Assembly (NCBI GenBank): GCA_019057795.1
Contig: JAHLWS010000065.1
Coordinates: 123,486 to 187,485, forward strand
Length of the DNA: 64,000 nt
Direction of reading: 5' to 3'
Source: Promethearchaeota archaeon
Lineage (GTDB): Archaea; Asgardarchaeota; Lokiarchaeia; Sigyniarchaeales; SOKP01
The notes under the pieces were generated by a model, which worked only from the letters and a program-made list of their open reading frames with translations, made no database searches and was not told the DNA's origin. Positions 16,548-26,169 of this stretch are shown here, in pieces. Both the position numbers and the translations under genes were made by a program. Every line of letters begins with the position of its first letter. The stretch's first letter is position 1.

Positions 16548-17411
16548 TTGGTTGAGAGTATATTGGGAACTCAAGTATTCAGGATATTACCAGATGGTAA
16601 CACAGAAGAAAACAAGACAGAAGGCCCTATAAAAGATATTCTAAAGACGGCAGAGTGCTACGTAATAGTTTCTGACGAATACCGTAAAGTTTATTTATGG
16701 AAAGGCATTGAGAGTAATGTTAGATCGAAATTTATAGGTGCAAAACGTAGCCAAGATATACGCGGTCAGGTAGGCATGCATTTTGGGGTTGTTCCTCTCG
16801 ACGAGGGAGATGAAGAACCAGATTTTATAAAGTTAATTGGTGGGAAGACCGAAGGAGGTATTGCAAAGGAGATTAAAGAGGAAGGAAAACCAGCAGCTAG
16901 AGCCACTCCAGCAGGGCATCCCTTAAGAGGGAAAAATGTATTTGGTACCCCTAAACCTGCAGCGGGAATGAATATAGCCGGGTCCAGAGATAGAGCAACT
17001 CAAAACACAGGACCTTTGTATACTGGTCAGGAGTCGTTTTCTACGCTTATGCAAGACGAAACACACGTGGATTTTAACGAAATTATGCAAAAATTAGAAG
17101 CCATCAAAATACCTGATGGATTTGAAAGAGAATTAATAATTATCGGGAATCACGCATACTCAGTAGTCGAAAGAGTTCAAACGTTTTTGGGCAAAAAACA
17201 AGTATCAAAAGAGATTTCAAAGGTTGGAGCCATTCCAGAAGGTGTATTTTTTGCTGAGGATTATTCTCCAAGAATTTTATCAGAGAATGGCAAGATATTA
17301 GCAATAGAATTTCTTAAACATACAAGTGGACCTAAGGATGTTAAAGTAGAGTATAAATCTAAGAAAGAAATTTTAAAAAACCAGATAAAAACTCAGCTTG
17401 AAAAACGATAG
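16548..17411 (+). CDS. gelsolin-domain protein with uncharacterised C-terminal domain
   Basis: ECYVIVSDEYRKVYLWKGIESNVRSKF...LDEGDEEPDF matches the gelsolin repeat consensus (vyvWxGxxs...xEGxExxxF). Confidence 0.85.
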   Translation: MVESILGTQVFRILPDGNTEENKTEGPIKDILKTAECYVIVSDEYRKVYLWKGIESNVRSKFIGAKRSQDIRGQVGMHFGVVPLDEGDEEPDFIKLIGGKTEGGIAKEIKEEGKPAARATPAGHPLRGKNVFGTPKPAAGMNIAGSRDRATQNTGPLYTGQESFSTLMQDETHVDFNEIMQKLEAIKIPDGFERELIIIGNHAYSVVERVQTFLGKKQVSKEISKVGAIPEGVFFAEDYSPRILSENGKILAIEFLKHTSGPKDVKVEYKSKKEILKNQIKTQLEKR

Positions 17412-17580
17412 AATTTTTCTTTAACCATATTCTTTTATTTAATTTTTTATTGAGTTCTAATTAAACTTTAAAACAATTTAACCTATTAATTGAATAATAT
17501 AAATTTTTAAGTTCGAAACGTCTATTTTATATTAAATAAAGAATAATAAAAAGATCAATTAAAAGCCAGAGATTATTCAA

Positions 17581-17964
17581 ATGAGCGATTTAAGCCAAGA
17601 TCAAGCACATAGCTTATCGAAATTTCTTGGTAATATTACCGAGCACACGGAATTAGAAGCCCTTGCCTTAGTAACCCGTGATGGTTTACGCCTTGCTTTT
17701 TCTTGCATCCCGGATTACGAAGTGGACCCCGATTTATTTTCGAGTTTAAGTGCTGTAGTAATGCAAAGTGGTTATGATGCTATACAATCATTAGGGTATA
17801 ATAATTTGTTAGAAGTGGTTTTAAGAGGAGATAATTCGTTTATAATTTTAAGTGGAGCAGGTAGGTTTTTCCTCATGGGAGGGAGCAGAAAGATTGAAGA
17901 TTTGGGGAAGATCGTAACTGTATTCCGCTACTACGCGGGAGAGATTTCAAAAAGATATCCTTAA
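17581..17964 (+). CDS. roadblock/LC7 (MglB-like) protein
   Basis: ALALVTRDGLRLA...DPDLFSSLSAVV...LEVVLRGDNSFIIL. Confidence 0.85.
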   Translation: MSDLSQDQAHSLSKFLGNITEHTELEALALVTRDGLRLAFSCIPDYEVDPDLFSSLSAVVMQSGYDAIQSLGYNNLLEVVLRGDNSFIILSGAGRFFLMGGSRKIEDLGKIVTVFRYYAGEISKRYP

Positions 17965-25570: not shown

Positions 25571-25620
25571 AGTATCATATTTAATTATTCATATTAAAAA
25601 TTAAAATTATAAAAGATTAG

Positions 25621-26169
25621 TTGATAGATTTGTCTGATAGAATTATCGAACTCCGGGTTGAAAACGACCGCCTTAGAAGAGAAGTTCAAAAATTAGAGAG
25701 TAAGGTTTTATCACTAGTAGGAATTATAAACTTGGAATCTTCAGGGGGTCCTAAAGGCAAGAATAGAATTAACGAGCGTTTAATTAATCTAATTACCTCG
25801 ACAAAACAACAGTTAAATATTCTTTCACCTAAGATCGATAGATTCTACGCTAATGAGGTAAAGAAGTTAACTCAGAAAGGAATTCCAATTTTGATAATTA
25901 CTAACGATAGAGGTAGCATTCCAAAAGCTTTTCAAGAAGTATACGACGACCTAAAAGTAACCTCTGGACTGAGTATTGTAAACAATCCTAACGTTAATTA
26001 TTTGTTAGTTTTCAATTCTGAAGAAGCTATTTATTCGAGTGGTTCATTAGTTAAGGAAGAACTTGAAAAAGCGGTTTTGATTATTACTACAGTTAAGGAA
26101 GCTACTAAGTTGAGAAAAATTGCAGAAATTTTTAGCTTAATGCTCCCGTCATTTATGCGCGGCAAGTAA
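25621..26169 (+). CDS. coiled-coil plus PLD-fold (TrmB-like) domain, HKD motif absent
   Basis: LITSTKQQLNILSPKID...KGIPILIIT...NVNYLLVFNSEEAIYSSGSL. Confidence 0.65.
   Translation: MIDLSDRIIELRVENDRLRREVQKLESKVLSLVGIINLESSGGPKGKNRINERLINLITSTKQQLNILSPKIDRFYANEVKKLTQKGIPILIITNDRGSIPKAFQEVYDDLKVTSGLSIVNNPNVNYLLVFNSEEAIYSSGSLVKEELEKAVLIITTVKEATKLRKIAEIFSLMLPSFMRGK

What the first reader, a model, noticed from the sequence alone, without database searches (positions are those of the whole stretch)
16548..26169. Actin-centred gene cluster enriched in apparent pseudoenzymes
Seen: eight consecutive + strand genes, namely gelsolin-domain, roadblock, Pro-rich CDC48-N/VWA, AbrB-ACT, coiled coil, actin-related, CHAT-like and PLD-like. 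The last five are separated by only 9-50 bp. Known: Asgard archaea have actin regulators such as gelsolins and profilins. Inference: the divergent actin forms a complex with catalytically dead scaffolds, reminiscent of eukaryotic ARP-containing complexes, possibly under metabolite-sensing (ACT) transcriptional control.
Basis: partly seen in the sequence, partly recalled or inferred. Interest (0 to 1): 0.82.

Follow-up and report, generated by a model that had tools for sequence, protein, structure and literature searches.

The report
Asgard actin relative gripped by pseudo-caspase
In Loki-type Asgard archaea, a divergent actin relative is kept and lost together with a large helical protein carrying a dead protease domain, which is predicted to grip one end of the actin, so the two probably form an undescribed complex; the other six genes of the reported cluster are looser or unrelated neighbours.

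Summary
All eight ORFs and their domains are real, but they are not one system. (1) Gelsolin-X, roadblock and CDC48N-VWA are a separate conserved trio. It lies about 300 kb from the actin in both cultured Lokiarchaeia, persists without it, and its VWA metal site is intact. (2) The core is coiled coil, divergent actin (g6), solenoid plus dead CHAT (g7), and dead PLD-fold protein, found only in the Loki order. g6 and g7 are adjacent in about 120 of 121 testable genomes and were lost together three times while their neighbours stayed. A complex model puts the g7 solenoid on the g6 pointed-end face: score 0.78, best control 0.00; the mark was reached by 58 of 80 solved and 2 of 110 mismatched pairs. 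CHAT His/Cys and PLD HKD are absent in all orthologues, under purifying selection. The g6 filament surfaces differ from Lokiactin, so a non-filament scaffold is likelier than a cap. The AbrB-ACT gene is unlinked in the cultured strains. Co-transcription and binding are not shown. The scan reported this module before on other genomes; I found no paper describing it.

The parts
16548..17411 (+). g1: one gelsolin domain plus C-terminal extension (1DGelX-like architecture); trio unit, not part of the actin core
   Evidence: 8 gelsolin-domain paralogues in the genome; stays with g2-g3 elsewhere
17581..17964 (+). g2: roadblock/LC7 protein; trio unit
   Evidence: Pfam PF03259; between g1 and g3 in G038, G318, G032, G017
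18048..20345 (+). g3: CDC48N-like barrel(s), Pro-rich linker, VWA with intact MIDAS; trio unit; family widespread in Asgard
   Evidence: homologues in 173 of 301 phylum genomes
20481..20495 (.). Perfect 15-bp A/T palindrome overlapping a TATA-like tract, 55 bp before g4; candidate promoter/operator of the g4-g8 block
   Evidence: present once in 13 of 14 same-genus loci whatever gene lies upstream; 2 copies in the 4.95-Mb genome, 1.6 expected. Function inferred
20551..20952 (+). g4: AbrB/MazE-type DNA-binding domain plus ACT; optional leader of the core block
   Evidence: before g5 in families f1, f3 and genus g5; elsewhere in G038, G318, G032, G039, G317
20988..21719 (+). g5: Lys-rich start, variable low-complexity linker, conserved C-terminal helical domain of about 120 aa; no family; looser core member
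   Evidence: retained without actin and g7; moves behind g7 in G317 and L252
21767..22963 (+). g6: divergent actin-related protein, orthologue of Ca. L. ossiferum UYP47647.1 and MK-D1 DSAG12_01479; remodelled D-loop; degenerate hydrolysis residues
22973..25570 (+). g7: alpha-solenoid (residues 5-446) plus caspase-like CHAT domain (467-855) with His to Asn698 and Cys to Gln744 (862-aa numbering); predicted binder of the g6 pointed-end face
25621..26169 (+). g8: N-terminal coiled-coil helix plus single PLD-fold domain without the HKD motif; looser core member
   Evidence: NucT Z 18.8, rmsd 2.1, 140 aligned; FAM83 Z 16.4; TrmB sugar-binding domain Z 13.8

Best explanation
The window joins two independent units. 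The interesting one is a dedicated 1:1 pair: a divergent actin-related protein (g6) whose pointed-end face (remodelled D-loop and subdomain 4 tip) is clamped by the N-terminal solenoid of g7. With that face occupied and its other filament surfaces changed, g6 works as a non-polymerising, probably nucleotide-bound structural subunit, like eukaryotic ARPs inside complexes. The dead caspase-like domain of g7 is the free, client-binding end of the scaffold. g5 and g8 are co-encoded accessory proteins that can function without the pair. Shown: gene linkage, joint loss, loss of catalytic residues, purifying selection, folds. Predicted: the g6-g7 interface. Inferred: stoichiometry, lack of polymerisation, nucleotide binding, client binding by the pseudo-protease.
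For: Adjacency: g6 orthologue in 124 of 161 class genomes; directly before g7 in about 120 of 121 where both can be placed (my count by eye; the exception G376 has a 3.8-kb insert), and in the four divergent g7 homologues checked from a 1.84-billion-protein search. Joint loss: g5-g8 adjacent with g6 and g7 not found genome-wide in genera g2 (3 genomes, one a single contig) and g5 (2 genomes); a g5+g8 tree rejects one loss, p-AU 0.0004, 2 changes; third event in G160, a 3,326-bp deletion of g6 and the first ~655 codons of g7. Complex model: score 0.78, best of 3 controls 0.00; mark reached by 58 of 80 solved and 2 of 110 mismatched pairs (counts hold roughly, own alignments); runs agree in at least 94% of contacts; partner pLDDT at least 79. 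The interface maps to actin 38-49, 60-65, 201/203 and 243-245 (mapping) and holds invariant residues g6 L55, L80, P259 and g7 L25, W33. Dyad absent in 29 aligned and 18 divergent orthologues, present in the nearest non-orthologous CHATs. dN/dS 0.08-0.16 for g6 and both halves of g7. g6 consensus matches Lokiactin at 28% of pointed, 24% of barbed and 15% of lateral contact positions, 29% overall.
Against: Neighbouring genes can be lost together by one deletion without interacting; three events is a small number, and the G160 deletion could be a mis-assembly (reads not checked). The complex is a prediction with g7 cut at residue 620, so most of the CHAT core was not modelled with g6. Interface residues are only slightly more conserved than average (0.72 vs 0.67 in g6; 0.68 vs 0.63 in g7). 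Most g6 orthologues have Glu at the Q137 position, the catalytic residue type of MreB/ParM (own knowledge), so slow ATPase activity is not excluded. No client or cellular role is identified, and the pair is dispensable in several lineages.
Confidence: 0.6

Rival explanations
1. g6 forms its own specialised filament and g7 is its dedicated pointed-end cap, sequestering factor or anchor, in the way arcadin-2 regulates crenactin or DNase I blocks actin.
For: Same linkage and interface data. The barbed-face positions are well conserved within the g6 family (0.72), which could serve self-contacts. Glu is common at the Q137 position. Co-encoded regulators of an archaeal actin are known (PMC5173319).
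Against: G15, G158 and H161 positions vary freely, D154 is mostly Asn, H73 is Phe; the C-terminal helix is lost and lateral contacts are the least conserved set, 0.59. Lokiactin conserves the same sets at 0.92-0.99.
Confidence: 0.2
2. g6-g7 is an Arp11- or Arp2/3-like pointed-end cap or seed for Lokiactin filaments.
For: A blocked pointed face with a free barbed face is the geometry of the dynactin pointed-end complex (PMC2174220).
Against: Arp11 keeps a conserved barbed face (PMC2174220); g6 matches Lokiactin at only 24% of barbed positions, below its overall 29%, whereas another Loki ARP matches 48%. The main text of the Lokiactin co-IP names profilin, gelsolins and an ARF GTPase but no ARP or CHAT protein (PMC13716822; full table not available). 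Lokiactin persists where the pair is lost.
Confidence: 0.08
3. One reading: all eight genes form one actin-regulatory system under ACT control.
For: Uninterrupted eight-gene order in 13 of 34 loci of the window's family. A different gelsolin-domain gene follows g8 in G030.
Against: 0 of 11 testable loci outside the family have the trio beside the core. The trio is about 316 kb (MK-D1), 306 kb (L. ossiferum) and 128 kb (G032, which lacks this actin) away. Insertions between g3 and g4 are frequent. An unrelated DNA methylase follows g8 in 24 of 28 family loci, more constantly than the trio precedes it (12 of 28). g3 homologues occur in many Asgard families that lack the core. g4 is unlinked in five f2 genomes.
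Confidence: 0.05
4. The block is a domesticated or still active defence/signalling cassette (TPR-CHAT sensor, PLD effector) with the actin fold as a nucleotide sensor or decoy.
For: Best folds of g7 are Csx29, DdvA and SAVED-CHAT; g8 is closest to NucT/Nuc nucleases; a DNA methylase follows in the family.
Against: Both catalytic sites are gone in all orthologues. The genes are single-copy and near-universal in the family, unlike patchy defence systems (own knowledge). DdvA and Csx29 keep the dyad (PMC11506125).
Confidence: 0.07

Closest known systems
Non-Lokiactin actin homologues ('ARPs') of Ca. Lokiarchaeum ossiferum (PMC9834061)
   Same: g6 is the orthologue of UYP47647.1, one of the three ARPs whose transcripts were severalfold below Lokiactin. 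The paper's supplementary table lists consecutive orthogroups annotated uncharacterised, actin, CHAT-domain and PLD.
   Different: The passages found give no partner, function or gene-context analysis, and do not note that the CHAT and PLD domains are dead.
Crenarchaeal arcade cluster (crenactin plus arcadins; PMC5173319)
   Same: An archaeal actin encoded with its own binding partners in one gene cluster.
   Different: Crenactin forms F-actin-like filaments and arcadin-2 binds the hydrophobic groove; here the actin is degenerate and the partner is a solenoid-CHAT predicted on the opposite, pointed face.
TPR-CHAT proteases: Csx29 (Craspase), DdvA, separase
   Same: Helical solenoid followed by a caspase-like CHAT domain.
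   Different: They keep the His-Cys dyad; g7 has lost both residues in every orthologue. Whole-chain TM-scores are only about 0.2, so this is shared architecture, not orthology.
Eukaryotic ARP modules (dynactin Arp11-p62 pointed-end complex; nuclear Arp4/5/6/8)
   Same: A divergent actin fold used as a structural subunit with a dedicated partner.
   Different: No homology of partners was found; the barbed face is not Lokiactin-like; g6 was not placed against eukaryotic ARPs in a tree here.
Catalytically dead PLD-fold domains (TrmB effector domain, FAM83 DUF1669)
   Same: g8 has the fold without HKD.
   Different: No TrmB helix-turn-helix; only a coiled coil precedes the domain.
Asgard 1DGelX gelsolins (PMC7444086)
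   Same: g1 has one gelsolin domain plus a C-terminal extension.
   Different: Not compared with the Thor sequence; it travels with roadblock and CDC48N-VWA, not with g6.

Membership tests
Actin family (g6) | Pfam PF00022 above cut-off; phosphate-1 D11/G13, phosphate-2 G156, adenosine glycine | tested here: met
   169 bits vs cut-off 27; D11 in 27 of 28, G13 and G156 invariant
Lokiactin / filament-forming actin (g6) | Conserved hydrolysis residues Q137, D154, D157, G158, H161 | tested here: not met
   E (variable), N, E, S, Y (variable) in 28 orthologues
Lokiactin / filament-forming actin (g6) | Actin-like longitudinal and lateral contact surfaces | tested here: not met
   15-28% match to Lokiactin consensus; separate clade from Lokiactin. 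Contact sets taken from own knowledge of F-actin
Lokiactin / filament-forming actin (g6) | Polymerises with ATP | not testable with these tools
   needs purified protein
CHAT / separase-type protease (g7) | Solenoid plus caspase-like fold | tested here: met
   model pLDDT 82; Csx29 E 2e-8, separase E 7e-5
CHAT / separase-type protease (g7) | His-Cys catalytic dyad | tested here: not met
   His absent in all 29+18 orthologues; no Cys at 744; two have a Cys one residue off without the His
Phospholipase D / Nuc superfamily (g8) | PLD fold | tested here: met
   Z 18.8, rmsd 2.1, 140 aligned to NucT
Phospholipase D / Nuc superfamily (g8) | HKD catalytic motif | tested here: not met
   His and Lys absent in all 28 rows (Val125, Tyr127 in the window)
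TrmB regulators (g8) | N-terminal winged helix-turn-helix | tested here: not met
   a single helix, residues 4-32, precedes the PLD fold
VWA domain (g3) | MIDAS DxSxS, Thr, Asp | tested here: met
   invariant in the homologues aligned; not a pseudoenzyme
1DGelX gelsolin (g1) | Single gelsolin domain plus C-terminal extension | tested here: met
   residues 10-100 match Asgard gelsolins
1DGelX gelsolin (g1) | Homology of the X domain to Thor 1DGelX; severing activity | not tested
   no reference sequence in session
Arp11 / Arp2/3-like cap or nucleator | Barbed face conserved with the main filament actin | tested here: not met
   24% vs 29% overall (criterion from PMC2174220)
Arcade cluster | Arcadin homologues | not tested
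   no arcadin sequences compared directly; no such Pfam hit
Known anti-phage systems (PADLOC 2.0) | Match to system protein models | tested here: inconclusive
   only a weak coiled-coil hit of g5 to ZorA, E 0.004
Single operon | Co-transcription of g4-g8 or g1-g8 | tested here: inconclusive
   short gaps and a conserved element before g4; the one RNA run could not decide

The most novel reading that the evidence does not exclude
Lokiarchaeia evolved a stable complex built from a non-polymerising actin-related protein and a separase-like pseudo-protease scaffold, with g5 and g8 as further subunits: a prokaryotic case of an ARP used as a structural subunit, with an actin-binding mode (solenoid on the pointed end) not found among the structures searched.
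Probability: 0.4. Interest if true: 0.82.

Novelty: new variant of a known kind. Interest (0 to 1): 0.64.

Why it matters
Asgard archaea carry several actin homologues besides Lokiactin, and the papers I could read assign them no function or partner. This gives one of them a specific candidate partner and interface, with genes present in both cultured strains (MK-D1 DSAG12_01478-01481; Ca. L. ossiferum NEF87_003930-003933), so the question of what Asgard ARPs do becomes directly testable. If true, using a degenerate actin as a subunit of a pseudoenzyme scaffold also happened in archaea. The module was found only in one Loki order, so it is likely a parallel invention and not the ancestor of a eukaryotic complex.

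Tried and rejected
RNA evidence: one MK-D1 RNA run held the stretch, but as a single 37.5-kb contig with flat depth covering both strands' genes, so it says nothing on transcripts. The sigma-70 promoter/terminator scan gave chance numbers (40 vs 42; 5 vs 5.4) and does not suit archaea. The ESM Atlas feature search and Pfam gave no family for g5; the UniRef label 'FlaD/E domain' on its L. ossiferum orthologue was not reproduced. PADLOC gave nothing useful. Literature searches for Asgard + CHAT + actin, the accession numbers and gene context found no description; subscription papers are not covered. The co-IP and proteome tables of PMC13716822 are not held. The core was not found in four f4 genomes (63-88% complete) or in other Asgard classes searched (generic CHAT hits only). 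Three 97-99% complete family genomes (G287, G349, G366) lack all four core genes, which may be assembly gaps. The grouping of g6 with the 'cassette' actins in the tree is a long-branch join and is not used. Only one complex job was available, so g6-g5, g6-g8, g5-g8, g7-Lokiactin and the CHAT core were not modelled.

Full report
Observation. The eight ORFs exist as described, with gaps of 169, 83, 205, 35, 47, 9 and 50 bp. Pfam, PDB and structure searches confirm the domain calls. The genome is a 4.95-Mb Lokiarchaeia-type assembly with four actins; the window's is the most divergent (163 bits vs 442 for the Lokiactin-like gene). Two relatives were identified by exact look-up: G038 is Promethearchaeum syntrophicum MK-D1 and G318 is Ca. 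Lokiarchaeum ossiferum.

The cluster is two units. In the window's family the uninterrupted eight-gene order occurs in 13 of 34 loci; the others have insertions between g3 and g4 (often a GH3 glycosidase), have the trio elsewhere, or lack g3. An unrelated DNA methylase follows g8 in 24 of 28 family loci, so family-level synteny is cheap here. Outside the family none of 11 testable loci has the trio by the core. The trio g1-g2-g3 stays together about 316 kb away in MK-D1, 306 kb away in L. ossiferum and 128 kb away in G032, which lacks this actin. g3 homologues occur in 173 of 301 Asgard genomes, and its MIDAS is intact. A 15-bp palindrome before g4 is kept in 13 of 14 same-genus loci whatever lies upstream, which suggests that g4-g8 has its own promoter or operator (inference). 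g4 itself is unlinked in five genomes of the MK-D1 family.

The core. g5-g6-g7-g8 is conserved across three families of the order at 21-42% identity between families. g7 matches occur in 117 of 134, 7 of 14 and 1 of 1 genomes of these families; elsewhere in the phylum only generic CHAT-domain hits appear. The g6 orthologue occurs in 124 of 161 class genomes. Comparing coordinates by eye, g6 directly precedes g7 in about 120 of 121 genomes where both can be placed; G376 has a 3.8-kb insert and keeps both. Four divergent g7 homologues taken from a 1.84-billion-protein search all follow an actin gene, while g5 and g8 may move.

Joint loss. In five genomes of two genera g5 abuts g8, and neither g6 nor g7 is found genome-wide; one of them is a single contig. 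A tree of g5+g8 separates the two genera, needs two changes, and rejects a single clade (p-AU 0.0004). Gene order agrees: one genus shares the Hef-PHP upstream context with MK-D1, the other keeps g4. G160 shows a third event: 3,326 bp of its sister G080 are replaced by 17 bp, removing g6 and the first ~655 codons of g7 and leaving a CHAT stub. A mis-assembly is not excluded. Its relative G207 has a stop inside g7 and no g6 match, but the contig ends there. No testable genome kept only one intact member. Adjacent genes can fall to one deletion, so this is supporting evidence, not proof. It also shows that g5 and g8 do not need the actin.

Pseudoenzymes. g7 is a solenoid (5-446) plus caspase-like domain (467-855), closest in fold to Csx29, DdvA and separase. 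The catalytic His is Asn698 and the Cys is Gln744; the His is absent in all 29 aligned and 18 divergent orthologues, while the nearest non-orthologous CHATs keep both residues. DdvA keeps its dyad (PMC11506125). g8 has a PLD fold (NucT Z 18.8, rmsd 2.1, 140 aligned) without His or Lys of HKD and without the TrmB DNA-binding domain. Against two close relatives all eight genes are under purifying selection (dN/dS 0.08-0.30), including the dead CHAT half (0.14-0.16). g6 keeps D11, G13, G156 and an adenosine-loop glycine, but has E or variable residues for Q137, mostly N for D154, S for G158, variable H161 and F for H73. Nucleotide binding is plausible; hydrolysis is doubtful, not excluded.

Predicted complex. 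g6 (8-380) with g7 (1-620) scored 0.78 against a best control of 0.00; the mark was reached by 58 of 80 solved and 2 of 110 mismatched pairs, counts that hold only roughly with my alignments; runs agree in at least 94% of contacts and partner pLDDT is at least 79. The model supports binding and does not show it. g7 residues 17-141 contact g6 42-60, 75-80, 216/218 and 259-261, which map to actin 38-49, 60-65, 201/203 and 243-245 (alignment). This is the pointed-end face, used by DNase I and by the next subunit in a filament (own knowledge; D-loop role in PMC5173319). The g6 D-loop is longer and different from Lokiactin's, which fits a dedicated partner. I found no solved actin-TPR-CHAT complex among the fold hits, so a pass from memory is less likely but not excluded.

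Mechanism. g6 matches Lokiactin at 28%, 24% and 15% of pointed, barbed and lateral contact positions, against 29% overall. Arp11 keeps a conserved barbed face (PMC2174220), so a Lokiactin cap or seed is unlikely. I favour a non-polymerising g6 held by the g7 solenoid, with the pseudo-protease domain binding an unknown client (0.6). A private g6 filament capped by g7 remains open (0.2). Co-transcription could not be tested.

Comparison and novelty. g6 is the orthologue of UYP47647.1, one of three L. ossiferum ARPs expressed below Lokiactin (PMC9834061). A supplementary table there carries automatic actin, CHAT and PLD labels for consecutive orthogroups, but no paper in the searchable library describes the module. 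It works like arcade (actin with co-encoded binders) or an ARP module, but fails the membership tests for filament actin, CHAT protease, PLD enzyme and Arp11-type cap. Earlier AI notes of this scan reported the four-gene module and the pointed-end grip on other genomes; they are not independent support. The parts added here are the split into two units, the three joint losses, the barbed-face test and the palindrome.

Verdict. Observation confirmed; interpretation partly supported. The eight-gene system is not real as a unit; the actin/pseudo-caspase pair is real as a genetic unit, probable as a complex, and testable in two cultured strains. New variant of a known kind; interest 0.64.

Noticed in passing
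L128:8270-15489 and L129:2534-9729 (MK-D1), L127:1054-8838 (G028): A second, patchy actin cassette: a 1350-1530 aa protein (Ig-like domains in the one scanned), two ORFs of about 360-420 and 280-295 aa without a convincing Pfam family, then a very divergent actin. Two copies in MK-D1, one in G028, not seen among the actins of L. ossiferum.
   Followed up: partly
window 30078-30692: Arf/MglA-like small GTPase 4 kb downstream, 93-98% identical among genus members where it was seen.
   Followed up: no
window 26398-29857: N6 DNA methylase and DEAD-box helicase follow g8 in most family loci; used as a control for family-level synteny.
   Followed up: partly
L178:10700-11623: UYP47647.1 is annotated at 307 aa and lacks the N-terminal phosphate-1 loop; RefSeq WP_457920139.1 gives 362 aa.
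   Followed up: yes
L087:5452-5997 and L154-L157 (G314, another order of the class): A lone g8 homologue without g5-g7, and several CHAT proteins of which at least two keep both His and Cys motifs; possible relatives of the ancestors of g7 and g8.
   Followed up: partly
L221, L222, L224 (trio in L. ossiferum, MK-D1, G032): The gelsolin-X, roadblock, CDC48N-VWA trio is conserved as a unit of its own; g3 is much more diverged in genus g2 (21% identity). It deserves a separate study.
   Followed up: partly
L216:5641-6103 (G207): In-frame TAA near codon 438 of the g7 orthologue, in a close relative of the genome with the deletion.
   Followed up: partly
window 26245-26316: A 23-codon ORF between g8 and the methylase; conservation not checked.
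   Followed up: no
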